A stretch of 64,000 nucleotides of DNA from NCBI GenBank assembly GCA_043228905.1, contig JBHGNT010000014.1, forward strand, positions 10,974,001 to 11,038,000, written 5' to 3'. This document shows positions 12,756 through 49,155 of the stretch, piece by piece. The stretch's first letter is position 1; each line of letters starts with the position of its first letter. The notes under the pieces were generated by a model. The model saw nothing but the letters and a program-made list of their open reading frames with translations. It ran no database searches and had not been told where the DNA came from. The position numbers and the translations under genes were made by a program. This stretch comes from Azolla caroliniana. Taxonomy: Eukaryota > Plantae > Polypodiophyta.

Positions 12756-12827
12756 TCCATCCCCACCAAACCGAACGTCCTCCAGTACGTGCCAAGAAGA
12801 GAGACTGTGAGATTTTAGCAATGGTGA

Positions 12828-15800
12828 TTAATCAGATTCCTCCAGGTCCTTGTTCACATAACTCAAGTCTGTAGGTTCAGTCTTACTATATTCATCGTCG
12901 AGGTGAACGAGGTTAGGATCCTTGTCTTGTCTTTTCTTGAAAATCTTTACTCTTTTTCCCGCAATGGGTATGGCCAACCTTGATCCGTCTAGCTCCGCAA
13001 GGTGGTAGGTGGCATTGTCGTTGGCACTTGTCACCACATATGGTTTGAACCATCTTCTTGCGAACTTTCTTGTTGTCCTGTGTTGATTGTCAAGGTTGTT
13101 GTCGTAGACCAATACCCAATCTCCTTCTTCGATCTTCTTGGGACGCAATCGATGTGTCTTATCCAACTGAATCTTGTTCTTGACTCGGCCTGCCTCGATC
13201 ATCTTTCACGCTTTTTCTAGATCTTCAGGCCTTCTTTCAAGCTGCCTTATCCGTGCCACCAATAATTCTTCTCAGCTCATCTCGTTCTCCCATGGTATCA
13301 CTACCCATGAGGCGATCGTCCTTTTGATGGCCATTACCGGCTTCTGTCCATACATAAACTCTATTGGCATATACCCTATCATTGAACTGTGTGTAGTTCT
13401 GTCGGACCACAAGGCATAGGGCAATAGTCGTGGCCAGTTCCCGACTCAACCGTTGCATGCTCGTACGATGGCTTTGACGGTTGGTCTATGACCTCGCTCG
13501 ATCTTCCCATTCGCTTCTGGATTGTAGGCAGTCATTAGGGAGAGCTTCACGCCTAGTCAATCGAAGAGCTCCGTTGCTTCGCATGCATCCAACTCCCCTC
13601 GATCAGCCACTATCTTTCCCACACATCCGTATCGGCAAACAACCTCTTCGAGTAGAAATTTGCAAACAACTGATGTCATCTTATTTGCCAAAGCCCGTCC
13701 TTCCACTTGATTTGTCAGGTCTTCTCTTGCCAGTACTAAGTACTTCATTTGTCCCACTCCCATTGGCATCGAGACCAAATCCACAATCCATTTGAAGTGT
13801 ATGGTGAGCGGGTATGTCGGTCGTAACTCATCACGATGATGTATGTTCGAATGTACTTGGCAAGTTTCGCATGTGGACACGAAATGGAGTATATCTTTGT
13901 ACATGGTTGGCCACCAGTACTTCTGCTTCAACTTTTTGAACGTCGCCCATGTTTCTCAATGACCTGCCCAAGGACTCTCGTGGAATTCGGTCATCAGTGC
14001 CATTTGCTCTTCTTTCTTCACCACCACTCGACGTGGCATTCCTGTCCTTTTTGGGTGTCGCAAGAGGAATCCTCCCTTTAGGAAGTATTGGTAAGATTTC
14101 TTCTAGATTCGTAGAGCCTCCTCTTTCATCAACGAAGCATCCGTCGTCATTGTTCTTAAGAATTTGCCAATCAATAACCACTCTCCTTCGTACTCGTCCT
14201 CGTTAAAGGCGTGGAGGGTTAGCGTGTCGTTCTCTTTCACTGATAGTCGAGAAATCTGGAAGAAGTCGAGGGTGACATCTTCATCTTCTGAAACCATGTC
14301 ACTTTCATTCTCAAATCTTGCCCTCGACAGCATATCAGCCATGACGTTCTTCTTCCTTGCAATGTGGCTGATCTCTAGGTTTAAAGACTTGATATAGGCA
14401 ATCCACCTTAGCATAGCTAGATCTGGTGTCGCACATCCTGAGATCATCCCGAGAATTGGGAGACAATCTGTCTCAATTATCACTTCTGGCCCGATCAGGT
14501 AGTCTTTGTTCATCTTCACTATAGACACAATACCCCAAAGTTCTCGCTTGACTTGGGTGTATCTTTGTTGTCGTTCACTGAGAACCTTTGCTCCGAACCG
14601 GATGGCATACCGCGCATTATCTTCTCCTTATTGGTTGATGACCCACCCGATTCCGGTTGGGCTTGTACCTACAGTCGAATAAATCGGCTTTCCTTCAGTA
14701 TAGTCGGCCTTCCTTAGCGTTAGAGCTTCAAGAAGTAGTTTCTTCAATCTTAGCATTGCGTTTGTATACTCATCTCGTCATTCGAACTTCATTATTTTCC
14801 TTAGCAATCCATATAATGGCTTGGCGACATGAGCATAGTGCGGAATCCAGATATGATAAAACACGCAACCTCCAAGGAACCTTCGAACCTCCATTTGGTT
14901 TACACATTCTTCTTTCATGTCCTGGATCGCATTCACCTTAGATGGCGAAAGCTTCCGGCCATATGCTCCACATAAGTGACCTACCACCAAGATCTTTGGT
15001 TGTCCGAATGCGGTTTTTTCTCCTGAAAATATCAATTTCGCATCTTCAAGCCTTTGGAGCACCTTCTCGCAATCTTTCATATAATCTACAACGAACTTCC
15101 TACACCCTTCCGTATTTTTCGATTCATCCTTCTCCTCATCCGAACATCCTTTTATGGGAATATCATCCAAGAATGGCATCATGATGTCCGGGATGCAATC
15201 CTTCAAAACCTTGTTCATGGCATTCACCATATGAGCCATGGAGTTCGTTGCACCTTGTGGTAAGGTACACATCCGCACAAGCCCGATCGGAGTCCTCGTG
15301 GTGGTAATGTCACGACTGTCGATCGCCAACTAGAATTGATCGTATCCAGAGTAGAGATCACCAATGGAGTAGATAGACTGGCCTGCAAACGCTTCGGCAA
15401 ATTCATCCACACTCGGACCGATTGCAGCATTCCAAATTGTCACCTTGTTGACGGGTTGAAGATCTTGGATGAATCACAATGATCCATTCTTCTTCGGCAC
15501 CGTGAACCACCTATTAGAATAGGAAGTATTCGACGATTCCCAAATTCCCATATCCGCCTTCTCCTTTAAGAGCTCGATCAGCTTCGGTAGGTGTGCTCAT
15601 AGAACCGGTAGCGGTTTCAAATTCCAAAGCACGTGCGGCACCGTGAAGATCACCATCGGTTCTATCGTCCTTTGCTCAGCACATCCAATTTCTTGGAGGG
15701 GAAATGCGAAAGCCTTCCCATGTCTTTCAAGAATTCCACGGAACATTCACTCCTCTTCAAGGAGGAGGAAATCCTCCTTCCCAACCCGTAGCTTTCTTTT

Positions 15801-16030
15801 CGTCTCTTCGGTGAAGACATGACCTATTGCCTTTGGATCCCTTAAGCTTGGATCATTAGAAACTTCCTTCATCTTTTGCCAGCTATGTTTTGGTAGCGGA
15901 ACCGCAACTGACTTGATTTTTCTATCCACTGTTTTATATTTTGTGTTGACTCCAGCTTCCTACATCAAGATGCCTCGATGATATTCATCGATGATAGCGT
16001 ACATGTTGACGGAGTTAACCGAAATCACGT
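12828..16030 (-). pseudogene. Pol (RT-RH-INT) of element C; N-terminal part at 52479-52776
   Basis: LPQGATNS, MPFLDD, ETDCLP, REDLTNQVEGRAL; broken by stops; homologous to the intact F pol. Confidence 0.9.
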
Positions 16031-17115
16031 TGTCGTAGGGTGAGTCACACACTACGTGAAATATGTAAAACACTATATCCGATTTGGAGTACGTATAATA
16101 AATAATAAATAAAATATTAAAAATATTTATTACGTGCATAGGGTAGGATTCGAACCCTGTACCTCCACATAGACAAACCCCATCCTTTCCACTATACTAG
16201 CATATTTTGAATTGTAAAGTTATACTAAACTTTATCCCATGTAAATATTCTAGATATGCATGGTACAAAAAGTTATTCATGCATACACACTCGAGTTAAA
16301 AGAAAAGATGGGATAGAAAGCTAATCATACACATGCAGTGTGCATGAAAACTAAAGTTAGGAAAAGCATGATTCTTGCATGTGATAAACTTAGACTCTTC
16401 CAACACAATATAAGGAAGAGAGAAAGATGTATAATGGTGGTTGTTTTGTTTTAGAAGGATTGATTCATACAAAATATTCGTGGGATTCTCAATTTTACAA
16501 TCTAATTCTCTCTTACAATCTAATTACCCATTGATACATTATACTCGTGGGATTCACGAGTTTCATATCTTCTTCTTATAATCTCTTCCTAATGAACATT
16601 ATCTCATATCCTTCTTGAAGTTAAAATCGTTGCCGGCCACAACCGGTTGTACGTGTGCGGAATAATAGTCAATCTAATGGAAAGGAAAAACATAATACAA
16701 AAACTTAGAATGACACAAATTTTAACGTGGAAACCCGAACTGGGAAAAACCACGTGGAGTCCACAAACTCCGAAACAGAACACTATGAGAGAAAGGAATA
16801 CAATCAGAGATCTCAGAGGCAACGACCTCGAGATCCCGCTTCGCCAACAGGCGGCTATGGAGCTCACACTCGTTCACTCTCACAGTTACAGAGGCAACAA
16901 CCTCGTCAATAGTAACTTTACAATAACGCACATATCTAACATGATTGCCCTAAGTACTTATATACTCATGTAATCTTTCGACTATTTACAAGTTTAGCCT
17001 TCCGTGTTGGCTATCTCCACGATTTCCCGTTTCTTCTCACTTCCCATCCAGAGGGACCTATTTCCTAACACTTCTTCTCACTCACGCAAACGATCCGGCG
17101 TCGAAAGGCACGACA
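16031..17115 (+). repeat. 5' LTR of element D (contains a copia solo LTR and a ~30-bp U5 deletion)
   Basis: Aligns to 51823-52478 on both sides of 16616-17070. Confidence 0.9.
16616..17070 (-). mobile_element. Copia-type solo LTR related to the element H LTR
   Basis: TG...CA termini; 5-bp TSD CTTCT; shares TTAACGTGGAAA, GGCAACGACCT and CCCATCCRGAGGGACC motifs with the H LTR. Confidence 0.85.
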
Positions 17116-17153
17116 AAATTGGTGAACCCGACGTGAACACGGGTGGCAAGGAG

Positions 17154-19422
17154 ATGGAAAATCAACCGAAGGCTAACAACATGATGATAATGTTCAAGCA
17201 GATGCTTCAAGAACAACGTGCGATGTCGGAGATAGCGGCGGCAGTAGAGTGGCTCGTGCAACGGATCGGGCAATTCAACGGAAAGGACGTATCACGCTAT
17301 CTTCAGGACTACAAGGTGGAAATGATACGGTGCGGGATTTTGGAAGGACTGCAAGTGACATCCTTCAATCCGGTAGCTACTGACGGGCTTCAAACAAGTA
17401 TCCACGGGATACGACAACAAAATCCGACATGGGAAGCATTTGAAGAGGCGCTAAAGACCACATTAGCTATCGAGGACTCCTCCAAGGCAACGCAGAGAGG
17501 ATTTGAGAATTGGGTGGAAATGCCGGACAAGGGGATGAAGGTCCTCGATGTGTTTTCGGCATTCGAAAGTCGGTTCGGGAGGTTGTCTACGAGAGATCAA
17601 GCTATCCTCGCATCCGACAAAGTTATCATGTTCTTATGAGCCGTAGACATCCGGGACCGGAAGGATCTTAGAGTGCTTCTAGAGGACACGACTACCGAGA
17701 GTGGCCTCACCGAAACATGGGAAAGCGTGCGGGATATTGTCGCACGATATACAAAGAGGGGGCAATGGCTTGCTAACGAAGAAAAGAGGGTTTCAGAACC
17801 GATTCCGAAACCGCTGGATTGGGTGGAAACACCGGACAAGGGGATGAAGGTCCTCGATGTGTTTTCGGCATTCGAAAGTTGGTTCGGGAGGTTGTCTGCA
17901 AGAGATCAAGCTATCCTCGCACCAGACAAAGTTATCATGTTCTTACGAGCCGTAGACGTCCGGGACTGGAAGGATTTTGGAGTGCTTCTAGAGGACACGA
18001 CTACCGAGAGTGGCCTCACCGAAACATGGGAAAGCGTGCGGGATATCATCGCACGATATACAAAGAGGGGGCAATGGATTCCAAAACCGAGATCCGGATT
18101 GGAAGACCATCAACCGCGGGCTCGGGAGGCTACGGCCGAGAAAGGAATCGACGCATCCACGGTGGAGCAATTGCTGAAGGGGATGGAGAATCTGAAAATC
18201 ACGATGGTAAAGAAGACGGAAGACCGTCCCATAAGTTCCAAGTACATGGACCGTCGATGCATATGGTGCGATAGCACCGAACATGACGGGATCTTATCTA
18301 CTACGAGAGAAATCAGATTCCTTCGATGGATTCTCGGAAGGAACTCCGACCGAACTTCCGGAAAGGTGGCATGAAGAAGGTCCTAGAGGACGAGATTGTG
18401 GCGAAAGACAATTATGCAACAACTGCGGGAATACGTGTGGGGGAGTCATCTGTAGCAAAGGCGTCTTTTTGGCCGGAAGTGTTAGAAATTTCGAAGAAAG
18501 CCGACCATGATGAAATCCGAAGCGCCGCAGAATGTATCCGGGAAGCTATGGGATGGGAGTGCCCCGTAGATAAGAATAGCGTACATGTGCTATGTCAATT
18601 GCATGAAGTGTATGTGGATGAAAAACAACGGCGCACGGACCATCAAAGACACCGGAAAGCTAGAACTCCGGAGGGAAGGGAAAAGAAAAGACGATTCCGG
18701 CATTCAAGCTCCCCTTGGACATTGAACAACAAACGGACTTGAAAAAGGTGTTTGAGGAGAGAATTCTCGATAGCTGGGTAGAATTTTCGCTTTGGGAATT
18801 ACTCGGAATAGCGAAGAAGGAGTTCCACGATCTTCTTGTGGATCTTGTGAAGAGAAAAAGACAAAGTACGGAGGAAAATGCTCCAAGGGTGAATGCAAAT
18901 ACCGTCTTAATGAATGACACCGAAGTGGAGGACGAAATACCGAACTCCCACTACACAAGGCCACACTGGGCACATGCAACTACGGAGACTCCGGTCCGAA
19001 TCGGCAACATCAAAGAGCCCGTGCTAGCATTGATTGATCACGGATCGGAGATCAATTTGATGTCCAAGGAGTTCTACCGGAAGGGGAAGTGGCCTATAAA
19101 CACTAACCATGGATGGAAGATCCGGGCAGCCACTAAAGCAACAGAAGATCTATTTGCGGCTAGTCCGGATGTGACGGTGAAGATCGGGGATGTCGAGATC
19201 GACCAAAATTTCTTCGTACAAGATGAGGTTTCACATTCCGTGATCCTTGGGCAACCATTTATCATGGCATCACGAATGGAGACGAAGGTGCTCGATAGCG
19301 GTGCGGCTTTCGCACGAATTCGGAGCCAAAGCGGAGGGAAATTCGTCCAATTCCTAACTGTGCCGGCAAATCATGAAAGGAACAAGAGAGATCTCTTGTC
19401 CCAAACAAGGATGGATTTTTAG
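17154..19422 (+). pseudogene. Gag-protease ORF1 of element D (disrupted)
   Basis: GQFNGKDV, CIWCDSTEH knuckle, ALIDHGSEINL protease, ILGQPF; ends DF-stop at the slippery site. Confidence 0.88.
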
Positions 19423-22400
19423 AGCGGATTGTTGCAGAGTGGGGAAGTGATAGTCCGAGAAGCCTTGATACCCCACACAGGAAGAAAACTCTCGGATCAA
19501 AACAAGTACGAATCGGTCCGGATGGGGCATCTACGTACACGGCCGTAACTGGAGGAATGAAGAAAGAATACCGAAAAGTGGAGGATAAGTTACGGTCGGC
19601 ATCAATAATAAAAGAAGACGAAGAAATTGTGGGAATAGTCGAAGAAGTGTTCTATGGGAGCACACTACAATGGCTTGAAGAGCTTGAGGAAGATACAAGC
19701 TAGGGAAACCGGGTAATTCCGGTGGAATCGGTGGAGATGTACGAGATCATTGCGAAAATGGGGCCGGATGCGCTCCGCAAAGAAGAAGCAATGGTAAGTA
19801 CGAAATACAAGACCGTGGAGAAGAAAGTGAAACCGGCCAAGGGACCATTACCCTCCGATAGCGAGCAAAAGAGGAAAGAAGTCTCGAGAGACCCGACACT
19901 TCGGAAGTCCGTGGATATCAGACATGCCTTCACGAATGAGACCCGGAAGAAACTTCGGATTGGTGGAGGTGGTTTCCATTTACAAAATGAAGAAGAACGA
20001 TTACGTGGGATGTTGGAACAACATGGGAAAGCATTTGCATTCACATTAAAGGAGATAGGGTGGGTTGATCCGAAGATAGTGGACCCGATGGTGATCTTCA
20101 CGATTGACCATGTGCCGTGGAACTTGAAGCCGATTCCGGTGCCGCGGACGCATATTCCGAAAGTCATCGACTTGCTCAAGGAGAAGGTGGCAATGGGGAT
20201 TCTAGAGCCATCAAACGCTCCATACTCAAATCGATGGTTTACAGTTCCGAAGAAGAATGGGTCACTCCGATTTATCCAAGACTTGCAACCGGTGAACAAA
20301 GTCACGATCCGGAACTCCGGAGTCGGTCCGATAGTGGACGAATTCGCGGAAGCATTTGCCCATCGTGTGACATACTCCATTGGAGACCTATACTCAGGGT
20401 ATGACCAATTCCAGCTAGTTGTGGAGAGCCGAGACATCACTACCATGCGGACACCGATAGGATTAGTCCGAATGTGCACACTACCACAAGGAGTGACAAA
20501 CTCGGTTGCACATATGATGAACGCAATGAACAAGGTGCTTCAAGACTGCATTCCGGTGATAACGATGCCGTTCCTAGATGACATTCCGATGAAAGGATGC
20601 GCGGTAGAAGAAAAAGATGAAACTATGGATGATCGGGGATGCCGAAAGTTCGTAGTCGAACATATTCGTGATTGCGAGAAAGTCCTTCGGAAGTTAGAAG
20701 ATGTGCACCTAAGCCTTTCCGATGAGAAATCCCCACTCGGGCAAGAAGACATATTGGTAGTCGGACATCTATGTGGACCCTACGGCCGAAGACCGTCACC
20801 AACCAAGATCGATGCGATTCAAGCTATGAAAGAAGTATGCGAGTCACAATCCGAAGTCCAAAGATTTCTTGGAGCATGTGCATTCTATCACATATAGATT
20901 CTGCACTATGCACATATTGCGGACCCACTCTATCACTTATTGCGGAAGGGTAAGAAGTTCGAGTGGAAATCGGAGCATACCAAAGCCATGAAGAAGCTCA
21001 AGAAATCAATACGGAGGGCAAAAGCCCTAAAGAAGCCGAACTATGACCGACCGATCATAGTAACGGTTGACACAAGTCGAACCGGAATCGGATGGGTCAT
21101 CAATCAAGCCGACTCAGATGGTTCGCGATATCGAATCTGATTCGGAGCAAAGGTTCTCAACGAAAGGCAACGCGGATATGCACAAGTCAAAAGAGAATTA
21201 TGGGGAGTCATGTCGGCAATCAAATCGGATTGAGATTATTTGATCAGAGCCGAAGTACTGATCGAAACGGATTGTCTTCTGATACTCGGAATGATGCGGT
21301 GTTGCACGATACCGGATGTGGCTATGCTAAGGTGGATTGCATATGTTAAGTCACTTAATCCGGAGGTATGACACATCTCCGGAAAAGGCAACGCGGTAGC
21401 GGATATGCTATCAAGGGCGCGGTTCGGAGATGACATAACCGAATCCGATAATGAAGAAGTTTCCGAAGACTACTTTGCTTCGGAGCACATATGCCAGGTA
21501 AACGTAATCCGAGAATTCCGAGAAGAAGAATACGAGGGAGAAAGGTTGTTGATCGGGAAAGTGCTACAAGAAATCAAGGAATCATCAGACAATAAAGAGA
21601 AGAGAGCCGATATCCGAAGTAAGAAGCGGCAAGTCCGAAAGTTCTTCTTGAAAAATGGATTAATATGGAGGGAGCCCAAAAGACTAGACGGCATACCACT
21701 TCGGGTAGTCGGGACGAAAGAGCAACGAAACCGGATAATGTCCGAATTTCACGAATCCGATTGGGCTGGACATCGAGGAACATGGGCAACTTTTGTGAAA
21801 ATCAAACAAAAATATTGGTGGAAGAATATGTACAAAGATATAGCAGAGTTCACGGAAAGCTGCGAGAAGTGTCAAATCTACTCCGGAGTTCGACACCGAG
21901 ATGAGTACATCCAACATTCTTACCGACAATCAACTTCAAATGGATGGTCGATATTGTAGCCATGCCAACCGGGATCAGACAAAAGAAGTACTTGGTGTTA
22001 GCTCAGGAAGATCTCACAAACCAAGTAGAAGGTCGAGCGCTACGGAGGAAAACGTGTTCTGTGGTATGCCAATTCCTTTTGGAAGAAGTGTTTTGCAGGT
22101 ATGGGTGCGTAGGACAAGTGATTGTGGATTGGGGAGAACTCGACTCTGATAAAGCTAAGGAATTCTTCACCCAACATGGAGTTGGGTTAACACTAACAAC
22201 GACATACAATCGAGAGGCCAACGGGAAAATCGAACGAGGACATAGTCTGACCGTCAAAGCACTTGCCAAAGCATGTGACGGAAGGGTGAAGGATTGGCCA
22301 CAGATGCTCCCGTATGCACTATGGGCGGATCAGACGACGCATAGCTTCGTAACCGGTTACATGTCAGCAAAACTCATGACCGGACAAGCATTGGTAATGC

Positions 22401-22505
22401 CAACGAAAACCGCGATCGCAACATGGACAATGCTACCGTGGAAAGAAGAGATGAGCCAGGAAGAACTACTAGCGGTCCGGATACGACAACTAGAGGGAAG
22501 ACCAG
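19413..22505 (+). pseudogene. Pol of element D (-1 frame); integrase tail resumes at 51341-51766
   Basis: RT, RH and INT motifs; frame restored across the E insertion (LEGRP/EDIVEAIR). Confidence 0.9.
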
Positions 22506-23430
22506 TGTTGTGATGTAGCGTGCTCGAGGGTGGCAAAAACCGGCGAAAGGTGGGGGGTCAAAAATGTGCATGTGCAATGTGTGTGCACACAAAAGCGATT
22601 AATTGTGCATATGCAAAATAAAAAGGAAAAGAAAGGGTAAAAAGGAGGTATAGAAGCTCGTACAAAAAGTAAGAGAGAGGAGAGATAAAGGGTAGAGGGG
22701 AGACATGCTATAAATTTATAGAGAGAGCATTATATATTATATAAGAGACAGTTAGTGGGCTAGTGGATAGTCACATTGATTACTAGTTGGAGGTGCAAGG
22801 TTCAAATCTAGTCTTACAGTGCAGTGTGATTTAAGGAATTTTATTCCTTTTTCATTGAAGACAAATTTGGCGACCCCCCCTTCTTTAATTCCTATAGAAG
22901 GAGATCGAGGGGGGCTCATTCGAGAGGACGTTTTGGGAGAGGGAGACTATCGCCAATTTTCCTTCCAAGCTCTTCATCTCCTTATTCACCACTTCTCTTC
23001 ATCTCATACCCCGTCATCCCCCCATCACCACGTGCTCGTCTTATTCGCATCGACACTCGAAGTGCTCGTGAGCCCAAGCTTCGTTGGTTAAACGTTGCTC
23101 TGCCCCGTTCGTCGTTGCGAGCCCGTGTGCTTGCAGTTCGAGTGGTCGTGGTTCGTTGGGATTGGCATTTTGGTGGTGCTCGTGTGTTCATCTTCGCCGT
23201 GTTCGGTTTTGCCTTGTCTCTAAGGGCATTTAATATATATGTTTTGATTGAGCTTATGGTTAACTATAAGTTTCCATTGTAAACAAAACCCTATTTTATA
23301 AAGGGTCCTCTTGCGTTAGAATCGAACACTATTTATCTCTTTGCTCAATATCATGCGTGTTTCTTTCTCTCCTTCTTTCTTTATTCCTGTCTTTCTTGTA
23401 CGTTCGGCCGTCTTGTGACGAGGGGACCGT

Positions 23431-24673
23431 TGTCGTGTGAATCTTCACACACTATGTAAAAAAATAATGAAATAATTATTATAGATTAGATTAGTAGCTT
23501 ACTATAGAAAGATGGATATACTCAAGAGCTTCAAAATGTATTTTACTATATACAAAATGGAGAAATACATATCAAGTTATGGGAAAATGAAGTTTGATTA
23601 GATAGAGAAATTAGAACTATCCCACATAGATAGGAAAGTTAAGGCCCTGGTTATATAAACACCTTGAGCTCCCTCATTTTTCATTTGTGTTGAGAGAACT
23701 TTGGCCACTTTGTCTTGATGGATGATGGTGGCCAAAATCCCTAAAACCGGAAATTGGCCGGTAAGCAAATCCGGAAACGGGCCGGTAATCAAAACCGGAA
23801 CCGGAACGGGTATGCAAACCGGAAACCGGCCGGCAAGCAAAACCGGAAACCGGCCGGTAAGCAAAACCGGAATCGGAATCGGCAAGCAAACCGGAACCGG
23901 AACCGGCAAGCAAACCGGAACCGGAACTGGCAAGCAAAACCGGAACCGGAACCGTAACCGGCAAGCAAACCGGAACCGGAACCGGCAAGCAAACCGGAAC
24001 CAGAACCGACCGGCAAGCAAAATGGAACCGGCTACCGGACGATGTTGGACGCGGACGGACGAAAGATTGGATCATGCAACAAACTAAAGTAAAGTGAAGA
24101 GAACTAAAGTAAAGGCCATGTGGACGCAAGCAACTAAAGAAGGGAGTGCATGGAAAAAGTAAAGGTCATGTGGACAGTCACATGCAACCAAAAGAAAAAG
24201 CTAGGGAACTAAAAGTAGAGGCCATGCAACAAAAAGTGAAAAGGCTATGATCAAGAGAGAACTCCATTTTTATTCCATTTGTTTTTTTCTACACTAGGAG
24301 AGACTCTCCATTTTTTTTATTTTATTTTTCTTCTCAACTCTCTTATCTTAGGGAAGCCATAACTCTCGAAAACCCAAAAATTCCCTACGGAAGCCATAAT
24401 ACTCATATAACCTAATCCTAATCTTCCCTACAGAAGCGATATCTCTCAAAACCCCTAATTTTTTTCTTTTCTATTAATCTTAGTAAACCTAAAACTTCTA
24501 AATCCCAATCTTGGGACATATTGTAATTTCTTTTTCCTTTGTTAATGAAAATGATTAAATTTCTTCTTTCTGTTAATTGTTAAAAATATAAACGCACACA
24601 TGTGATTATCCTTCGGTCGGAGGCCCCGGGGTCCTGCCTCAAGTTCGCGTATCCTCGTCGTATTTTCGCGACA
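23431..24673 (+). repeat. 5' LTR of element F with an AACCGG/GCAAGCA array (~23745-24035)
   Basis: Nearly identical to 35956-37337 apart from array length. Confidence 0.95.
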
Positions 24674-26280
24674 TCTTTGGTGAACCCGACGTGAAGCGAG
24701 GCAGTAGGAGGATATCAAGTACGAAGATGGCTTCGACAAGTGGAACTCAAGGAGAAGAATTGACGAAAGGCATGGTGTCCGTCGTCGAATTCATGCTGAA
24801 AGAGAGAGATCGGGAGGCTTTAGTCGACAAAGTTGTTGACCGAACTGTGGAGACAGTTGGAAGATTTGGTGGGAAGAACATCACAAATTTCCTTGCTACC
24901 TACCGGAATGAGATGCAACAAAGAGATGTCCATGATCCAAAACAAATTTCAAGCTTTAAGCGAGTGGTAGAACCCGGGATCCGTGAGCGCGTGATGGAGA
25001 TCCAAAACGAGCATGCAACTTGGGCGGAGTTCGAAAGGGCTCTTCTCACTGAATACATGCTTGAAGACGCATCGCGGATGACTCGGCATGCGTTAATGAA
25101 TTGGATCGAGAAGAAAGGGAAGAATCTATGTGCATCGGGAATTTATGCCGAATTCGACCAGAAGTACCATCGACTTCCGAGTGTCGAGCAACAAGTTCTT
25201 GACGGAGATAAAGTCTTGCTATTCCTAAAGGCAATGGATGCGAAAGATCGGCGAGAATTGGGTAGTTTCTTGGAGGATGAAACACAACCAAATGGTTTGG
25301 TAGCGGACTGGGCGGCGGTGAAGAAGGCTTGTAGCCGTTTTGATAAGCGGCGACAATGGCAAGAGGAAGCTGAGGTCGAGAATCCACAATTGTGGAAGAA
25401 GGCACCTACGACGATTGAGCCTGGTAAGCCGATCAACAATTTCGACAAGAAAGCAATGGAGGAGTCTATAATCGAAGAGCTCTCCAAGAAGTTTGAAGCG
25501 GTATCGCTAGCCAACTTAGGTCGACGCGGGCCCAAGGGAAAAGAAGCGTATAGATGTGTGTGGTGTGATAGCTTTGAACACTCATGAAGGGAATGTGTTG
25601 ACTTGCAAGATGCAATCCGCAAGAATGTCGTCTATTTGGACGGCAACATGATTCACTCAAGCGAGACCCGGAAGCCACTACGAGTGAACTTCGGAAGAGG
25701 TGGGCTGAAAAAGATTGTAGAAGAAGAAGATGCAAGGCATGTGGAGGCTATGCACTATGCCGCTTCGGCTGGGATACGAGTTGGAAAAGAGAATCTTAAA
25801 ATGATCAAGCCAGGAGCTGGGTTTTGGCCAACGGTTTTCGAGTGCGAAGAAAAAGGCAAAATCGATTCAGAGGATCTAAAACTTGCTGACCGAAACGTGC
25901 GACGAGCAACGGGATGGTCAGATCCAATCAATGAAAACACAAGCTTTGCGGAGGTTGTGTGTGACACCTATGAAGCCCTTGTTGAAGAGAAGAGGAAGAG
26001 AACTGGTGAAGAAGATGGCACATCAAAGCGACCTAACACGAGGAACGGAGGGAAAGAAGGGCCACCCCAACCTATCCCAAGAAAAGAGATTGGTGAAACA
26101 AACATGAAGCCCGGTGGATCGAGCCAACCTGCTCGGATGGAAGTCGAAGAATCAACGAAGGAAAAGAACGAGCGCCACCGACTTACAAGCTAAGGTCGGA
26201 CATAGAACAAACAACTAACTTGCGGAAGGTCCTTGAGGAGAAGGTTTTAGATAGTCATGTCGACCTTACCTTGAGAGAGC

Positions 26281-29200
26281 TGTTGAAGACAAGGCCGCGT
26301 CGATGCGGAAGATCAAGCAGCATTCGATTGCGGTGAGTACCTGCGTATGACAGTTTCAAGGTCGTTGCACAGAGATAGAGAGAGAGAGAGAGAGAGGAGG
26401 CACAAAACGACTCTTTCTATTCCATAAAGCAATAATACAACCCAACCTTACAAAAAGGTTACAAGGTCACTATATATAGTGACAGACTTAGGGCATCTAC
26501 CATTTATGCTAATTACACAAATGGCCCAAACTTGATCTATACAAAGGGATAGTGTGAATACGTCCATTATACACTTGTATTCGACACTCCCCCGTAATGG
26601 GCGTATACATGGGTTATCTAAGATTACAGGCATGAACCTAGGTTCTCGGACATATCAGTTTTGTTCGAGTCGGCAGGGTCCGAAGGCAGAAGACCGAACT
26701 GGTCGGGTCGGAAGAGTTGAAGCCGATCATTAAGGAACTGATGTCGGTTGTCGGAAACCATCCTGCGCTGTGTCCGGCTCTAACCGGACTGGTTTGTCGT
26801 TACGCCCATCTGATGCCGAAGGGACCGAAAGCGGTCTGCCGAAAGACACTTGGTCATTCCATCTGCGACATTGTCGGTTGTGGATATTTTCTCTACACCG
26901 ATTTTCCCTGAAATGACGCAGTCCCGAACGAAGTGATATCGAACGTCGATATGTTTGGAGGCGTTGTGGTGAACCGGATTTTTCGACAAGGCAACAACAC
27001 CTTGACTGTCGCTATAGACAACTGGGGCCGAGTCATGGTCGACTTGTCGAAACGTGTGCGCCAGCTGGCCGAGCCACAAAGCTTCTTTTGCAGCGTCGGA
27101 CGCAGCTACATATTCTGCTTCGGTCGTTGAGGTCGTTGTGCACTCCTGAAGTTTCGACTTCCACAAAATTGCTCCATTGCCGAATTTGAAGAAGTATCCA
27201 GTTGTTGATTTCCGACTGTCTATACAGCCGGTGAAGTCCGAGTTGGTGTAACCGACTACGCCTGTAGTTGAGTTCGGACCGAAAAGAATGCCGTGGTCTT
27301 TTGTGCCAGCCAGATATTTGAACACATGCTTGACTGCGTTCCAATGCGATCGGCCAGGATTGTGCATAAATCTGCTAACGACTCCTACGGCATGAGAAAT
27401 ATCAGGCCGTGTCGCGACCATTAGGTACATAAGGGAGCCGACTGCCGGTGCATACGGTACCGACTTCATATCTTCCCCCTCCGGACCGGATGTCGGGCAG
27501 TCTCGCTGAGAGAGCCGAAGATTCATGGGGAGCGGGGTTGAAGCAGATTTGGCTGATTGCATGTTGAAGCGTTCCAAGACACGTCCGATATAGTCGGTCT
27601 GAGACAAAAAAAGATGTCGTTGATCGCGATGCCGACTAATCTTCATGCCAGGTATGTGTCGTGCCGGACCGAGGTCCTTCATGGCAAACTTCAACCGCAG
27701 TTGCCGAATGAGATCGGCAAGTTCGCCCGCGTGGCGTCCAGAAATTAGCATGTCATCCACGTAAATGATGAGGAAGATGGGTGATCCATCTTGAGCTGTG
27801 TTGGTAAAAAGACAATGGTCCTCATCGCTTTTTGAGAAGCCGATCGATTGGATGAAGTCGTCGAACTTCTTGTACCATTGTCGCCGTGCTTGTTTGAGGC
27901 CGTATAGACTCTTCCTGAGTCGGCAGACTAGATGTTCTTGGCCAGTTGCCACGAAGCCTTTTGGCTGCTCCATATAAATTTCCTCTTCAAGATCACCATG
28001 GAGGAATGCTGTTTTGACATCTAGCTGAATCAGCTCCAAGTTGTCGGCTGCCACTACGCCGAGTAGAAAACGAAGGGTTGTCATTTTCACCACTGGTGAA
28101 AAAATCTCGTCGAAGTCGACGCCATATTCTTGTCGGAAGCCCTTCGCAACTAATCTGGCCTTGTACTTTGGGGTGGTCGAATCAGACGTCTCTTTTAGTC
28201 GATAAACCCACTTGCAAGGAAGAGCACGTCGGTTCCTAGGTAATTCGACCAGATCCCAAGTCTTGTTTGCCCGAATGGAGTGCATTTCCGACTCCATCGC
28301 CAGATGCCAGGTGGCGGAATCGACAGATGTCGATGCTTCTTCGTAAGACGTCGGTTCGCCAGTGTCGGTGAAGAAAATTCCAGGAGAATACCTCTCCGGA
28401 GGTTGCGACAGTCTCTCGGATCGTCGAGGTATGATTGGACTGGTCGCATCGGGTATCGAGGTCGGATGGTCCGAAAGCGAATTATTCTGCTGTGCCGAGT
28501 CAGAGTTGTCCGAATCGATAGTGTAAGGTTCAGCTACCCGTGAAGCTGACCGTGTGTTAAGAGCGGGGCCTTCTTGAAGGGTCGGCACATCGGAAAATGT
28601 TACCCTTCGGACTTCGATCGGTTTTTCGACTGATGGATTCATAGCCGACTCGTTGAACACAACGTCCGAACTTCGAACGATTTGTCTGCGTTCGGGGTCC
28701 CAGAGTCGGTATCCCATTTCGCCGTCTGATCCATATCCAAGGAAAATGCATTTCCTGGACCGAGGTGCAAGTTTTCGGCGATCATCTTTCGGAATAAGGG
28801 CGTATGCCTCGCATCCGAAGATCCTCAGCTTGTCATAATTCGGCTTACTGCCGATCCATAGTTCCTGAGAAATTTGAAGTCCTAGAGGTCTGCTTGGCGA
28901 CATATTGATTATGTGTACTGTCGTGAGTAGAGCCTCTGCCCAGAAGCCATCCGACAGTCCGGAGTGTTGGAGCATGGAAACTATCCGTTCTTGGATTGTC
29001 CGATTCATGCGTTCGGCAATCCCGTTTTGCTCCGGACTGTGTGGTGCCGTAAATTCACGTCGGATGCCGCGTTGTCGGCAGAATTTGACGAATTCTTCTG
29101 ATTTGAACTCTCCCCCATTGTCGATCCGAAAGCATTTCAGTTTTCGGTCGGTTTGATTTTCTACCATAGCGAGCCAATCGGAGAAGATCGAGAAGACACG

Positions 29201-31814
29201 ATCTTTGGTGCGAATTGGATAAGCCCACACCTTTCGAGTCGAATCGTCAATAAAACTGACGAAGTAAGAGGCACCGCCGAGAGACTGATGCGGCATTGGG
29301 CCACAGACGTCCGAGTGGACTAAATCGAGAGGTCTCGTTTCTCTTGGTGCTGATGTCGGGTGTGATGCGGTTGCTTGTTTGCCATACTGGCAATGCTCGC
29401 AGAATTGATGGTCGGAGAAGGAGAGTTTAGGGATGTATCCGGCTCTAGATAGATGCGTAATGCCGGCCTTGCTGAGGTGTCCTAATCTTCTGTGCCATAG
29501 TGATGACACAGGAATATCCACCAAAAACAGGTTACCCTCTCTAAGCGTAACATGTAATGGATACAGTGAGTGTATCTTGGGTCCTCTAGCAAGCAGGAGG
29601 TTCCCCCTGTGGAGTGTCCACCCTCCCGAAGAGAAACCGGCACGAATGTCGTCTTCATCTAGTTGTCCGACTGAGATCAATGGCCTTGAGAGCTCGGGTA
29701 CATGTCGGACATTGTGAAGTACAAGTGTAGAGCCACCTGCAAGGTTGAGCTCTACTGTGCCGATTCCAATGATGTCACAGTGTTGCGAGTTACCGACTCG
29801 AACTGAGTCGGAGTGACGGATCGTATATTGCCGAAATTGGGATCGATGAGGAGTCACGTGAAATGACGCGCCCGAATCTAAGAGCCATGTGCTCGATTCT
29901 TCAGTCGTGAGCAGAACTTCTGATCCGACTGGATTTTCGATTGATAGTATATTCGGGTCGTTTGGTAGCACATCAGCTGAGAAGCTGACGTAATTGATCT
30001 CCTCATGCCGGCCACTCTTCTTGTCTGATCTCTGAGACTTGTCGTTCTTGTTCTTGAGTGCGCGGCAGTCGGCTTTGATGTGTCCGGGTTTCTTGCAATA
30101 GTTGCAGATTCGATTATCCCGTGACTGGCTCCGTCTTCGCTGATTGTTCGGCGGCCATGAGGAATCTCTTCCTCGTATGTTCGATCGGTCTGTCGAACCT
30201 TGTACTACGTAAGCGTCGTCTGTTGAGTCTTTGGCGAAAGACTTTCTCCGAGCTGCTTCGGTCAGGATTGCGCTCGTGACTTCGGAGTATTTAACAGCCG
30301 TGGTTGACGCGTTGCACACGGTTGTGACGAAAGTTTCCCATGATGAGGGAAGGCTGCTCATGAGTATCATTGCTCTGAGTTCATCCTCGATTGCCGTCCC
30401 CTGTGACGAGATTTGGGAGCTTATGCTTTCGTACTCATTGAGATGTGCTTGAACCGAATCGGATTCTTTCATCCGCAAGTTGTAGAGGCGCCGGATCAGA
30501 AACATCTTCGTTGCAGCGACCTTCTTTTCGTAGGTGTCCGACAGTGTTTTCCACAGTTCGAATGCTGTCGTACACGATTGCACCGTAAAGTATACCGATT
30601 CCGATAGGTGCATCCGAATCGTGGCGCGGACGATTCTATCCAGCTTCTGCCACTCAATTGGTTTGTATCCTTCTGGAGGTTCTTCATTTTCGATGGGATC
30701 GATTTGCCCCTTGACTATGAGATAGTCCTGCATTTGCTCCTTCCAGAAGTTGAAGTTCGATCCATCGAACTTTCGTAGACTCATTTCTGACGAGCCGGAT
30801 GTTGATGCCATCAAATTTGGTTTCGGTTGACGAAGCTCGGTTCGGAGTTGACTACGAACCTTGTTGGAGTGCAGCCGGTTGGCTCACCCGATATCGTTCT
30901 AGTCGGATTTGAACCCGAGTCAGTTCGGCTTCAGATATATGTATTGTTGAACTTGCTCAAATTGACTCCGGTAACTTGAGGGACAGAACCGACTGGTCTT
31001 CCCGAATGTTGCCGAGTCGGAGTGAGCCCGGTTCGCTTCCGAATATATATGCCAAATACCGATTATTGAATCCGATTGTCTGGACCGATTCTGCTTCGGG
31101 TGACTGCAGCGACGAGAGAGACGGATCCAACTGATCCTCTCGAATGTCGATCAGCCGGATGAAGCACGAATTGGGGTTGTTGTCTTGAGACCGATCTGCA
31201 CCGAGTGGTTACAATGAGCGGCGAGCAGCGTTTGATGACCTCTTCGGATGCCGTTTAACCGAGTGGAGCACGATCGTGTCAATGTTGCACAAGGGGATTT
31301 CACCTCGAGCGGTTACGATCACAAGGAACAGAGTACAACCGGCTGGCTTACTCCAGGCGAAGATGATCTAACGCGATGAGATGCAAGCCTCGTTTTTCTT
31401 CTTCTTCTCTCTTCTTCGAATGACGCAGGAAACCGAATGCTGTGCAGGCTGAGACGACGGCCGACAGCGGATTGAAGGACCGAATACTGTGCAGGCTCAG
31501 ATACCAGATGTTGAAGACAAGGCCGTGTCGATGCGGAAGATCAAGCAGCATTCGATTGCGGTGAGTACCTGCGTATGACAGTTTCAAGGTCGTTGCACAG
31601 AGATAGAGAGAGAGAGAGAGAGAGGAGGCACAAAACGACTCTTTCTATTCCATAAAGCAATAATACAACCCAACCTTACAAAAAGGTTACAAGGTCACTA
31701 TATATAGTGACAGACTTAGGGCATCTACCATTTATGCTAATTACACAAATGGCCCAAACTTGATCTATACAAAGGGATAGTGTGAATATGTCCATTATAC
31801 ACTTGTATTCGACA
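26281..31814 (-). mobile_element. Element G: full-length Ty1/copia
   Basis: 306-bp LTRs 26281-26586 and 31509-31814 (two transitions seen); TSD AGAGC; Met-type PBS TGGTATCTGAGC at 31495-31506; PPT at 26587-26595. Confidence 0.97.
26780..30814 (-). CDS. Copia gag-pol polyprotein (Tnt1-like), 1344 aa
   Basis: Uninterrupted ORF: CNYCKKPGHIKADC, WLLDSGAS, integrase HSDVCGP/DNGGEF/NGIAER, RT YKARLVAKG/YVDD, RNase H. Confidence 0.95.
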   Translation of the reverse strand: MMASTSGSSEMSLRKFDGSNFNFWKEQMQDYLIVKGQIDPIENEEPPEGYKPIEWQKLDRIVRATIRMHLSESVYFTVQSCTTAFELWKTLSDTYEKKVAATKMFLIRRLYNLRMKESDSVQAHLNEYESISSQISSQGTAIEDELRAMILMSSLPSSWETFVTTVCNASTTAVKYSEVTSAILTEAARRKSFAKDSTDDAYVVQGSTDRSNIRGRDSSWPPNNQRRRSQSRDNRICNYCKKPGHIKADCRALKNKNDKSQRSDKKSGRHEEINYVSFSADVLPNDPNILSIENPVGSEVLLTTEESSTWLLDSGASFHVTPHRSQFRQYTIRHSDSVRVGNSQHCDIIGIGTVELNLAGGSTLVLHNVRHVPELSRPLISVGQLDEDDIRAGFSSGGWTLHRGNLLLARGPKIHSLYPLHVTLREGNLFLVDIPVSSLWHRRLGHLSKAGITHLSRAGYIPKLSFSDHQFCEHCQYGKQATASHPTSAPRETRPLDLVHSDVCGPMPHQSLGGASYFVSFIDDSTRKVWAYPIRTKDRVFSIFSDWLAMVENQTDRKLKCFRIDNGGEFKSEEFVKFCRQRGIRREFTAPHSPEQNGIAERMNRTIQERIVSMLQHSGLSDGFWAEALLTTVHIINMSPSRPLGLQISQELWIGSKPNYDKLRIFGCEAYALIPKDDRRKLAPRSRKCIFLGYGSDGEMGYRLWDPERRQIVRSSDVVFNESAMNPSVEKPIEVRRVTFSDVPTLQEGPALNTRSASRVAEPYTIDSDNSDSAQQNNSLSDHPTSIPDATSPIIPRRSERLSQPPERYSPGIFFTDTGEPTSYEEASTSVDSATWHLAMESEMHSIRANKTWDLVELPRNRRALPCKWVYRLKETSDSTTPKYKARLVAKGFRQEYGVDFDEIFSPVVKMTTLRFLLGVVAADNLELIQLDVKTAFLHGDLEEEIYMEQPKGFVATGQEHLVCRLRKSLYGLKQARRQWYKKFDDFIQSIGFSKSDEDHCLFTNTAQDGSPIFLIIYVDDMLISGRHAGELADLIRQLRLKFAMKDLGPARHIPGMKISRHRDQRHLFLSQTDYIGRVLERFNMQSAKSASTPLPMNLRLSQRDCPTSGPEGEDMKSVPYAPAVGSLMYLMVATRPDISHAVGVVSRFMHNPGRSHWNAVKHVFKYLAGTKDHGILFGPNSTTGVVGYTNSDFTGCIDSRKSTTGYFFKFGNGAILWKSKLQECTTTSTTEAEYVAASDAAKEALWLGQLAHTFRQVDHDSAPVVYSDSQGVVALSKNPVHHNASKHIDVRYHFVRDCVISGKIGVEKISTTDNVADGMTKCLSADRFRSLRHQMGVTTNQSG

Positions 31815-32432
31815 AGAGCTACTTGGGATCGTGAAGAAGGAGTTCCATGATACTATCGTGGACCTTATTAAGAGGAAGCGACAACAATCTGATGAAGAGG
31901 AGGTCAAAACAAGTGCCATAACCATGGCAAGATCGGAAGAGGAGGAGGAAGAAGAAGTGGTGGCGGATAGCCATTACTCGCGGCCTCATTGGGCAAGAGT
32001 GACAACAGAGACACCGGTGAAGATCGAGGAGAAGAAAGAGACCGTGGTCGCTTTGATTGACCATGGCTCTGAGATCAACCTCATGTCGACCGAGTTCTAT
32101 AAGAAAGGAAGATGGTCGATTAATACAAACCACGGATGGAAGATTCGAGCGGCGACGAAGGCTACGGAGGACTTGTACGGAGCTTGCCCCAACGTTAAAG
32201 TCACGATCGGGGATGTAGAGATTGATCAACACTTCTTCGTGCAAGACTCGGCTTCACATCCCGTCATCCTAGGACAACCATATATAACATCGTCCCGGAT
32301 GGAGACCAAGGTGTTCGATAATGGAGCAGCCTTCGCGCGCGTCAAGAGTCTTGATAGTAAAAGATCCGTTCAATTCCTGACGGTTCGAGCTAATCATGAA
32401 AGGAACCGAGATAGCCTTGGAGGCGAATCCTC

Positions 32433-35400
32433 GGATTTTTAAAGCGGACTATTGAAGCATGGGGCACAAATAGTCCGAGCAATCATAAGTCCCCACAAGG
32501 AAGCAAAGTGTGTGGATTGCAAGGAGAAGCAACATGCGTCACACTTGGCGGCGCATGCAAACTTAGACTACTCAATAAGAAGGAAAAGTGTCAGATACAA
32601 GACTTCGAGGAGGTGCTGAAAGAAGAAAGCATAATCGAAGAAGAAGAATTCGTGTCATATATTCTAGAGGAAGCCTCATTTAACGACACCATCGACGAAA
32701 TCGAGGAAGTCGTGGATTTGAGCTATCCTCACCATCGACATGTGATTTCGGTTAACTCCGTCAACATGTATACTATCATCGATGAATATCATCGAGGCAT
32801 CTTGATAGAGGAAGTCGAAGTCAACACAAAATATAAAACCGTGGATAGGAAGATCAAGCCAGTTGCAGTTCCGCTACCGGAAGATAGCTGGCAAAAGATG
32901 AAGGAAGTTGCAAAAGATCCAAGCTTAAGGAACCGAAATACAATTGGTCACGTCTTCACTGAAGAGACGAAGGGAAAGCTACGAGTTGGAAGGGAGGATT
33001 TCCTCCTCCCTGAAGAGGAGCAAATGTTTCGTGGAATGCTTGAAAGACATGGGAAGGCTTTCGCGTTTTTTCCACAAGAAATCGGGTGTGCTAATCCAAG
33101 GACGGTAGAACCGATGGTGATCTTCACGGTGCCGCATGTGCCTTGGAATTTGAAACCGATACCGGTTCCGAGAGCACACCTACCGAAGTTGATCGAGCTC
33201 TTAAAGGAGAAGGTGAGGATGGGAATTCTAGAACCGTCGAATGCTCCTTATTCTAATAGGTGGTTCACGGTGCCAAAGAAGAATGGATCGTTGCGATTCA
33301 TTCAAGATCTTCAACCTGTCAACAAGGTGACAATTCGGAATGCTGGAATCGGTCCGAGTGTGGATGAATTTGCTGAGGCGTTTGCGGGCCGGTCCATCTA
33401 CTCCATCGGCGATCTTTACTCTGGCTACGATCAATTCCAGTTGGCGGTCGACAGTCGTGACATTACAACCATGAGAACTCCAATCGGGTTGGTGCGGATG
33501 TGTACCTTACCTCAAGGCGCAACGAACTCGGTGGCTCATATGGTGAATGCCATGAACAAGGTCTTGAAGGATTGCATCCCGGATATCACAATGCCATTCT
33601 TAGATGATATTCCGATAAAAGGATGTTCGGATGAAGAGAAGGATGAATCAAAAGATAAGGATGGATGTAGAAAGTTCGTCATGGATCATATGAAAGATTG
33701 CGAGAAGGTGCTCCAAAGGCTCGAAGATGCGAATTTGACATTTTCGGGAGAAAAATCCGCATTCGGGCAACCAGAGATCTTGGTGGTAGGTCACTTGTGT
33801 GGAGCATACGGTCGGAAGCCTTCGCCATCCAAGGTGAATGCAATTCAAGACATGAAAGAAGAATGTGTAACCCAAACGGAGGTTCGAAGGTTCCTTGGAG
33901 CATGCACGTTTTATCATATTTGGATTCCACACTACGCCCACATTGCTGAGCCATTATATGGTCTACTAAAGAAGAAGCGGATGTTCGAATGGACGAGCGA
34001 GCATACAATCGCCATCCGAAGGCTGAAGAAAATTTTGATGGAGGCACCTGCATTACGGAAAGCGGACTATTCATACGGCAAGCCCATTTTCGTGACTGTG
34101 GATACTAGTCCAATTGGAATTGGATGGGTTATCAACCAAGAAGATGAAGATTGCAACCGATATGCAATTCGGTTTGGCGCGAAAGTGTTAAGTGACAGGC
34201 AAAGAGGGTATGCCCAAGTGAAGAGGGAGCTATGGGGGATCATCTCGGCAATCAAATCTGATCGTGATTACCTTATTGGAGCAAAAGTCATAATTGAGAC
34301 AGATTGCCTACCAATTTTGGGTATGATATCTGGTTGCAATACACCGGATATTGCCATGTTGCGTTGGATTGCATATATCAAATCACTCAACCCGGAGATC
34401 CGTCATGTAGCTGGGAAGCGTAATGTCGTTGCAGACATGCTATCACGAGCGAGATACGACGGAGAAGAAGATCGACATTCTGATGAAGATGATGTTGGCC
34501 TGGATTTCTTTGCAAGTTCCTATGCTCGGGTGTTGATTACTTTCATAGAAGAGGACTACGAAGGCGAATTCGTGGAGATCGGGAAATACTTGAGTTCTCT
34601 CCAAAAAGATGAATCATGGTCGACGGAAGACTTCCATCGAATTCGGAAGAAAGCATACAAGTATTTCCTTAAGGATGGAGCTCTTTGGAGGCATGCAAAA
34701 AAGAAGAATGGGACTCCGATGAGAGTTGTCTGCAAGCTAGAAGACCAACAAAAACTAATGTCTGAATTTCATGATAGTGTTTTTGCAGGCCATCGAGGAA
34801 TATGGGCTACGTTTGCGAAGCTTAAGGAGAAATATTGGTGGTCGGGCATCTACAAAGATGTAGCAGCTTATGTGGAAACATGTAAGGAATGTCAAATGTT
34901 TTCGAATATTCGCCATCGAGATGGACTTCATCCGACTTACCCGTTGGCTATGCATTACAAGTGGATGGTGGACATAGTGATGATGCCAATGGGACGATGG
35001 CAGATGAAGTATCTTGTGCTCGCGAGAGAGGATCTTACCAATCAAGTTGAAGGGCGAGCATTAAGAACTAAGGAGACATCATTGGTATGCCGATTCCTTC
35101 TTGAAGATGTTATTTGCAGATATGGATGCGTCGGCAAGATAGTGGCTGATAGAGGCGAGTTGGACGCCAATGAAGCTAGAGAATTCTTCTCGAGGATGGG
35201 AATCAAATTATCTCTTACCATGGCGTATAATCCGGAAGCAAATGGGAAGGTGGAGCGTGGACATGGACCGATTGTGAAGGCTCTAGTGAAAGCTTGCCAT
35301 GGGAAAATAGGAGAATGGCCACGTCTATTGCCATTTGCATTATGGGTTGACAGGACTACTCATAGCACGGTGACGGGATACATGCCGGCAGAGCTCATAT

Positions 35401-35888: not shown

Positions 35889-35955
35889 CAAACAAAAATG
35901 AATCCTCACCAAAATTGGCACATACCGGTGGATGTGCAGGTTTGGTGGGGGCGAA

Positions 35956-39955: not shown

Positions 39956-40028
39956 AGCCTCCGGGCTTGCCGTCATTCATCTCCGGACATCCCATCCGGA
40001 GGGACCGAAATCCCAACAAACTCCCCCT

Positions 40029-49095: not shown

Positions 49096-49155
49096 CCACC
49101 CTCAGCCCACCATTCTTGGCACATACCGGAGGATGTGCGGTTTGGTGGAGGTGGA

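What the first reader, a model, noticed from the sequence alone, without database searches (positions are those of the whole stretch)
24607..24716. Covarying three-way RNA junction enclosing the tRNA-Trp PBS in four divergent families
Seen: U5 pairs with the leader just beyond the PBS in two stems. Inner stem: F CTGCCTC(24634)/GAGGCAG(24698), C CCGCCTC/GAGGCGG, D CCACCCG/CGGGTGG(17140), E CCGCCC/GGGCAG. Outer stem: F TATCCTTC/GGAGGATA, C ATCCTTCC/GGAAGGAT, D TCTCCT/AGGAGA, E CTCCCT/AGGGAG. Between them lie a conserved RGTC linker and a 4-bp hairpin (AACC..GGTT in D, GACC..GGTC in E, GACC..GGTT in C, GGCC..GGTC in F). For D the U5 half is read from the 3' LTR because the 5' LTR lost it by deletion. 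Sequence changes while pairing is kept. Known: avian sarcoma-leukosis viruses use a U5-leader stem for tRNA-Trp priming. Inference: an undescribed priming or packaging element.
Basis: partly seen in the sequence, partly recalled or inferred. Interest (0 to 1): 0.78.

Follow-up and report, generated by a model that had tools for sequence, protein, structure and literature searches.

The report
Conserved primer-site RNA junction in retrotransposons
In one lineage of plant jumping genes, paired sequence changes point to a predicted three-armed RNA fold around the site where a tRNA primer binds, and the fold likely helps start their reverse transcription, as a similar stem does in retroviruses.

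Summary
The stems are in the window as described. They flank the tRNA-Trp primer-binding site (PBS) of four nested Ty3/gypsy elements with Phygy hallmarks. These are sibling families (RT 81-89% identical to F's), so they are one inherited structure, not four independent cases. A metagenome scan gave about 80 relatives. In a sequence-only alignment of 50 distinct sequences, 89% of cells pair. The outer stem is the strongest covarying helix anywhere in the alignment, above all 600 tree-aware simulations. Hairpin and inner stem pass only at their own columns, and no single pair reaches E<0.05. Fifteen held-out loci pair 263 of 289. Three distant loci fold unaided into the same junction with rewritten helices and the same CCNGY loop. 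New here: CACGCA is the commonest hexamer in U5 and complements tRNA-Trp nt 48-53, where the HIV-1 primer activation signal acts. It is also predicted to pair with the PBS itself, and family C mostly lacks it. Best reading: a priming platform like the retroviral U5-leader stem, function untested. No Rfam family or paper found describes it. Verdict: real, a new variant of a known kind.

The parts
24607..24614 (+). F outer stem P1, 5' arm (U5)
   Evidence: covariation
24615..24621 (+). F linker (RG + 5 nt); U and purine positions fixed in the near set only
   Evidence: column counts; differs in distant loci
24622..24633 (+). F side hairpin P2, 4 bp, loop CCGG (lineage pattern CCNGY)
24634..24640 (+). 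F inner stem P3, 5' arm
24646..24651 (+). PAS-like / anti-PBS word; this copy has a private G at 24647 where most copies have A
24678..24695 (+). 18-nt PBS complementary to the 3' end of tRNA-Trp(CCA); 5' LTR ends at 24673
24698..24704 (+). F inner stem P3, 3' arm (leader)
24707..24714 (+). F outer stem P1, 3' arm; first ATG of the gag-like frame at 24727
38399..38503 (+). Same junction in element E (PBS at 38471, ATG 38511)
54989..55100 (-). Same junction in element C (PBS 17-mer 55008-55024); no clear PAS-like word in this copy
17083..17156 (+). Element D: PAS-like word (17083), PBS (17120), leader arms (17140, 17149) running into the ATG at 17154; U5 arms missing from this LTR
52409..52442 (+). 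Element D: U5 half of the junction in the 3' LTR
23431..37337 (+). Element F, Ty3/gypsy, TSD CCGT, LTRs 98% alike, with a copia insertion at about 26280-31810
22506..51340 (+). Element E (holds F in its 5' LTR and a copia at 39261-44889), TSD CCAG/CCGG
16031..52478 (+). Element D (holds E), TSD ACGT
11558..56223 (-). Element C (holds D); flanks ATGC/ATGT, no exact TSD

Best explanation
The U5 end of the LTR and the leader just past the tRNA-Trp PBS are complementary and covary across a Phygy-type retrotransposon lineage, and are predicted to fold into a three-way RNA junction that likely serves as the platform for starting reverse transcription. Shown: the complementarity, helix-level covariation, the PBS identity, the conserved hairpin loop and the CACGCA word. 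Inferred steps: (1) in genomic RNA, P1 and P3 close a loop that holds the PBS, with hairpin P2 at the junction; (2) before priming the CACG word covers the 3' end of the PBS; (3) the tRNA 3' end would anneal and open its T-stem, and the released CACGYA word would capture tRNA nt 48-53, a swap of partners like the HIV-1 PAS:anti-PAS pairing; (4) RT would then copy through and destroy the U5 arms, so the fold is used once per cycle.
For:: 89.3% of 1032 cells paired, 16 of 21 pairs with two-sided change, slid controls 38-57%; best 8-pair run among all column pairs is P1 (194 against a largest null maximum of 99.7; 0 of 600 tree-based simulations); P2 and P3 0 of 600 at their own columns; 15 held-out loci pair 263 of 289 (slid 42-55%); distant L070, L099, L043 fold unaided into the junction with different helix sequences. 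P2 57 of 60 cells, 3 of 4 pairs with two-sided change; hairpin in 75 of 82 family loci against 1 of 32 other PBS loci; PAS-like word 53 of 82 against 2 of 32. CACGCA is the top hexamer (16 of 50); duplex score >=6 with the tRNA motif in 23 of 50 against 3 of 50 upstream controls; the two letters after YACG fit tRNA G49/U48 and not the PBS. The tRNA sequence is from a supplement of PMC13128298 (flowering plants). The fold brackets the PBS exactly, as in retroviruses (PMC3675109, PMC1865047, PMC13191261, passages).
Against: No structure pair reaches E<0.05 singly (best 0.07). RNAalifold finds P1 and P2 but not P3. All three helices exceed probability 0.5 in only 22-23 of 50 sequences, and in the window's F copy P1 and P3 drop to 0.04 when the PBS is blocked. 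Folding z-scores are unremarkable. The PAS-like word is absent from 29 of 82 loci, including most of family C; its CACG core is also explained by pairing with the PBS (18 of 32 words) and by descent, and CpG decay can produce the same pyrimidine-purine pattern. The host's own tRNA was not seen.
Confidence: 0.55

Rival explanations
1. The junction is mainly a packaging or dimerisation signal: P1 and P3 present the P2 hairpin, whose CCNGY loop binds Gag or kisses a second RNA; it forms only on RNA that carries U5 plus leader.
For: The P2 closing pair and loop are the most conserved features, kept in distant loci where the linker and all helices change. CCGG, a palindrome, is in 27 of the 75 loops.
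Against: The third loop base varies freely (C 20, G 23, A 5 of 50), so about half the loops are not self-complementary. In RSV the packaging signal lies downstream of the PBS domain (PMC7291142, passages).
Confidence: 0.2
2. The fold mainly controls access: it masks the PBS from abundant tRNA-Trp 3' fragments (the reads filed as miR894) and/or sets translation at the gag AUG that lies at the foot of P1.
For: The CACG word pairs with the PBS 3' end in 18 of 32 predicted ensembles and in distant L070 and L099. The first ATG lies within -6 to +5 nt of the end of P1 in 37 of 50. miR894 reads match the TrpCCA 3' fragment, are complementary to this PBS and map to gypsy repeats.
Against: The 5' half of the PBS is held only by short, weak pairings in the predicted folds. 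The first ATG was not verified as the gag start in every locus. It does not explain the P2 loop or the CA after CACG.
Confidence: 0.15
3. No selected RNA structure: a pyrimidine-rich U5 and purine-rich leader inherited from one ancestor, with matching changes from template switching or relatedness.
For: One lineage; a loose junction pattern hits 151 of 295 shuffled leaders and 79% of swapped U5/leader pairs; no single-pair significance; most loci bear accession numbers of one series.
Against: Tree-aware helix test, held-out set, and distant loci from other collections with wholly rewritten helices.
Confidence: 0.07

Closest known systems
Phygy lineage of non-chromovirus Ty3/gypsy LTR retrotransposons (Neumann et al. 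2019, PMC6317226)
   Same: tRNA-Trp PBS (81% of Phygy), 4-bp NCGN target duplication, 7.7-10 kb length, no extra domain seen in Pfam
   Different: The passages and supplement rows I saw describe no RNA structure; Phygy was defined from Physcomitrella alone, while named RT relatives here come from Riccia and Adiantum
ASLV/RSV U5-leader stem and U5:TpsiC pairing (Rfam RF00467 RSV_PBS)
   Same: tRNA-Trp primer; a U5:leader helix closes the PBS loop; a U5 word is proposed to pair with the T arm (PMC13191261, passage)
   Different: Score 15.2 bits against a threshold of 47; the Rfam model has one stem, with no side hairpin or second stem; similarity is mostly the PBS itself
HIV-1 primer activation signal (PAS)
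   Same: U5 word complementary to tRNA nt 48-55, masked by pairing until the primer anneals (PMC3675109, passages)
   Different: 6-7 nt rather than 8; about 30 nt upstream of the PBS rather than about 50; predicted mask is the PBS itself; missing in about a third of loci; untested
Ty1 extended primer pairing (box 0, box 1)
   Same: A retrotransposon uses pairing beyond the PBS (PMC3592414, passages)
   Different: Ty1 has a 10-nt PBS inside gag with extra boxes beside it; here an 18-nt retrovirus-like PBS in a U5:leader junction

Membership tests
Phygy lineage | PBS for tRNA-Trp | tested here: met
Phygy lineage | 4-bp target duplication NCGN | tested here: met
   F CCGT/CCGT, D ACGT/ACGT, solo LTR ACGT/ACGT; E CCAG/CCGG with one change; C ATGC/ATGT not exact
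Phygy lineage | Length 7.7-10 kb | tested here: met
   After removing nested inserts about 8.4 (F), 9.3 (E), 8.2 (C) kb; D about 7.6 kb, at the lower edge (arithmetic)
Phygy lineage | No chromodomain and no archaeal RNase H | tested here: inconclusive
   No chromodomain in the Pfam scan of F, D, E frames; C's pol not scanned; aRH not tested specifically
Phygy lineage | RT/RH/INT fall in the REXdb Phygy clade | not testable with these tools
   No REXdb sequences on hand; C, D, E, F group together far from the window's chromovirus-type RTs
Rfam RSV_PBS (RF00467) | Score at or above 47 bits | tested here: not met
   15.2 bits, E 3; no Rfam match at threshold in the window or at E<=1 in 10 loci
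Retroviral U5-leader stem (works-like) | U5:leader helix enclosing the PBS | tested here: met
   Covariation, (prediction, not probing)
Retroviral U5-leader stem (works-like) | [quoted passage not shown] | not testable with these tools
   Needs a bench assay
PAS:anti-PAS | U5 word complementary to primer nt 48-55 | tested here: inconclusive
   Top hexamer matches nt 48-53; 53 of 82 loci; family C mostly lacks it; partly explained by PBS pairing
PAS:anti-PAS | Covaries with the primer when the tRNA changes, or stimulates initiation | not testable with these tools
   All loci were selected for the same PBS
tRNA-derived LTR sequence (Helenus-type box B) or T-loop mimic | Box A and box B / tRNA fold in the LTR | tested here: not met
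   No tRNA found in the window or loci; the GTYCRA linker is not kept in distant loci; box A was not searched for separately

The most novel reading that the evidence does not exclude
A plant retrotransposon lineage spanning non-seed plants has its own retrovirus-grade initiation module: a three-way junction in which one U5 word first masks the PBS and then swaps onto the opened T-stem of tRNA-Trp, an almost energy-neutral exchange (predicted -7.2 against -7.6 kcal/mol) that gates priming and shields the site from tRNA-Trp fragments, while an invariant CCNGY hairpin docks RT or Gag.
Probability: 0.25. Interest if true: 0.72.

Novelty: new variant of a known kind. Interest (0 to 1): 0.5.

Why it matters
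RNA structure at the priming site is well studied in HIV-1, RSV and yeast Ty1 but, as far as my searches reach, not in plant LTR retrotransposons, which make up much of many plant genomes. A PAS-like pairing has been suggested for all retroviruses; a natural series of about 80 divergent copies lets it be tested outside them. The junction is about 110 nt, so it can be probed directly. It is also an island of conservation in otherwise unrelated LTRs, which makes it a marker for finding and classifying this lineage.

Tried and rejected
No host genome was held, so no genome-wide copy set. A loose pattern search for the junction was uninformative (53 of 59 gag-positive loci, but 151 of 295 shuffles). 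Single-pair tree-aware test: nothing under E 0.05; the top pair overall (columns 72-82, E 0.055) lies outside the proposed helices, in the variable U5 hairpin. Viral contigs gave 6 PBS matches, none of this family; scans for a tRNA-Trp gene or more elements in viral and prokaryote collections found nothing. No RNA holder was listed and the RNA-guess runs are contigs with little or no cover: no statement on expression or start site. A TATAAA 20 nt before P1 in F, which would put P1 outside the transcript, is not shared: 1 of 50. T-loop/box B mimicry: suggestive in the near set, not kept in distant loci. Ribozyme or other Rfam family: no match. The L096 fold used wrong coordinates and is ignored; L038 and L067 did not fold into the full junction there. 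Supplement searches in PMC13578239 and PMC11700998 gave no tRNA-Trp sequence (4 files of the latter were not searched). Earlier scan findings: none returned.

Full report
Setting. The window is a stack of nested LTR retrotransposons: Pfam shows two copia polyproteins, chromovirus-type frames at the left, and gypsy RT/integrase frames. An exact PBS 17-mer occurs four times against 0.17 expected: D 17120, F 24678, E 38471, C 55008-55024 (minus). It is the complement of the tRNA-Trp(CCA) 3' fragment listed in a supplement row of PMC5389709. Self-comparison and flanks give the nesting C > D > E > F. Target duplications are CCGT (F), ACGT (D), CCAG/CCGG (E) and inexact for C. Neumann et al. (PMC6317226, passages and supplement rows) give tRNA-Trp, NCGN and 7.7-10 kb for the Phygy lineage. 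RT relatives named by their sources come from Riccia and Adiantum. RT cores are 81-89% identical to F's and group together. I file the elements as Phygy-type; the defining tree test could not be run and the host was not determined.

Observation. E's inner stem has one mismatch. D's 5' LTR lacks 33 nt of U5 because a 462-nt piece, partly like the copia LTR, stands in their place; intact relatives such as L003 show the whole D junction.

Larger set. A metagenome scan for the PBS returned 120 loci from 19 of 64 parts of the collection. I selected by gag similarity downstream, which is independent of RNA structure: 57 of 120 loci plus the 4 window sites, 59 long enough. After seeing the first alignment I dropped 8 of 59 by eye (L016, L087, L098 and window D, broken or chimeric; L043, L067, L070, L099, distant and out of register), leaving 51 rows, 50 distinct, mean identity 62%, 30 clusters at 85%. 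Most loci carry accession numbers of one series, so the sampling of hosts is narrow.

Covariation. On this sequence-only alignment 89.3% of 1032 cells pair and 16 of 21 pairs show two-sided change; 0 of 500 shuffles reach it, slid controls give 38-57%. That control ignores kinship, so I simulated independent columns on the tree with matched step counts. Singly, no structure pair reaches E<0.05 (best 0.07), although 11 of 20 tested pairs rank at E<14 among 8001. As helices, the best run of 4, 6 or 8 stacked pairs anywhere in the alignment lies in the outer stem and exceeds the maximum of all 600 simulations (194 against 99.7 for 8 pairs); P2 and P3 exceed 600 of 600 only at their own columns. 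This is my stand-in for R-scape and assumes independent columns. Fifteen loci not used so far pair 263 of 289 cells (slid 42-55%); ten distant or broken loci pair P2 38 of 40 but P1 44 of 71 and P3 33 of 62 at those columns. Folded alone, distant L070, L099 and L043 give the same three-way junction with different helix sequences; L067 and L038 do not fully. With distant loci included, P2 pairs 57 of 60 cells with 3 of 4 pairs changed on both sides. A hairpin closed by C-G with a YYNR(Y) loop is in 75 of 82 family loci and 1 of 32 other PBS matches (pattern set after looking; many controls look like chance matches in unrelated DNA).

Against. RNAalifold recovers P1 and P2 but not P3. The full junction is the minimum-energy fold in 5 of 8 sequences and energies are not unusual. 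All three helices pass probability 0.5 in 22 of 50 with the PBS free and 23 of 50 with it blocked; the window's F copy loses P1 and P3 when blocked. A loose pattern is matched by half of the shuffles.

Between P3 and the LTR end the commonest words are ACGCA, CACGC and CACGCA. Plant tRNA-Trp sequences in a supplement of PMC13128298 show that CACGCA complements nt 48-53, the strand freed when the PBS opens the T-stem; the HIV-1 anti-PAS is nt 48-55 (PMC3675109, passages). A duplex score of 6 or more occurs in 23 of 50, against 3 of 50 upstream segments; a PAS-like word is in 53 of 82 family loci and 2 of 32 others. Contigs of four runs show that most F-like copies have A at 24647, which restores CACGTA. 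The same CACG is predicted to pair with the PBS 3' end in 18 of 32 cases, so part of its conservation needs no tRNA; the following CA fits the tRNA and not the PBS, but kinship and CpG decay weaken that point, and most of family C lacks the word.

Mechanism. The fold brackets the PBS as the U5-leader stem does in retroviruses, where it bears on initiation (PMC1865047; PMC13191261; passages only; the original ASLV papers were not read). I therefore favour a priming platform with a partner swap between PBS-masking and T-stem capture (0.55). Packaging or dimerisation through the CCNGY hairpin (0.2) and control of PBS access or gag translation (0.15; first ATG within -6 to +5 nt of P1 in 37 of 50) are live rivals and can coexist. 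All functional steps are inferred.

Known or new. Rfam has no match at threshold; RSV_PBS is the best weak match; ten loci give none at E<=1. Paper searches listed nothing on such a structure in Phygy or other plant elements; I saw listings only (20 per search at most), the library lacks most subscription papers, and bioRxiv supplements were closed. Passages of PMC3601003, PMC3592414, PMC7291142, PMC3185528 and PMC10886601 cover LTR stem-loops, Ty1, RSV, HIV-1 and tRNA-derived LTRs without it. It works like a known retroviral element and is not a member of its Rfam family: a new variant of a known kind, interest 0.5.

Noticed in passing
PBS, window 24678-24695: The small RNAs filed as miR894 match the tRNA-Trp 3' fragment (with an A-to-T difference at the position of m1A58, my inference) and are complementary to this PBS; PMC5846777 maps them to gypsy repeats and calls their role open (passages).
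   Followed up: partly
window 38120-38474 and 50962-51340: Both LTRs of E carry a tandem copy of the U5 end that includes the spacer and the first four PBS bases, so sequence from beyond the LTR end was copied into the LTR; it gives a second set of U5 arms.
   Followed up: partly
window 3792-4566 (-) and 3457-3863: A D-type solo LTR with ACGT target duplication sits in the chromovirus-type element at 202-8153; a 204-nt tandem duplication repeats its U5 end.
   Followed up: partly
window 16617-17078: Foreign 462-nt piece in D's 5' LTR, partly 74% like the copia LTR at 39261, exactly replacing the U5 arms of the junction.
   Followed up: partly
window 39261-44889 and 26278-31814: Two copia elements with unbroken polyprotein frames (1374 and 1367 aa) and LTRs 100% and 99% alike, so recent insertions.
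   Followed up: no
window 23719-24031, 36268-36705; 37299-38045, 50019-50891: Tandem arrays inside the LTRs: 24-nt AACCGG-rich units in F and 105-nt units in E.
   Followed up: no
L009, L027, L032, L066, L075, L089: AT-rich loci with the same PBS behind a shared TGTAAACA end but without the junction or PAS-like word: apparently another element group using tRNA-Trp.
   Followed up: no
L096, L002, L087: A variant group; L096 keeps a CCGGC-loop hairpin in a different helix arrangement (read by eye; the fold of L096 used wrong coordinates).
   Followed up: no
window 17096-17108 and D relatives L003, L012, L098: D family has a short hairpin with a GNRA-like tetraloop just before the LTR end.
   Followed up: no
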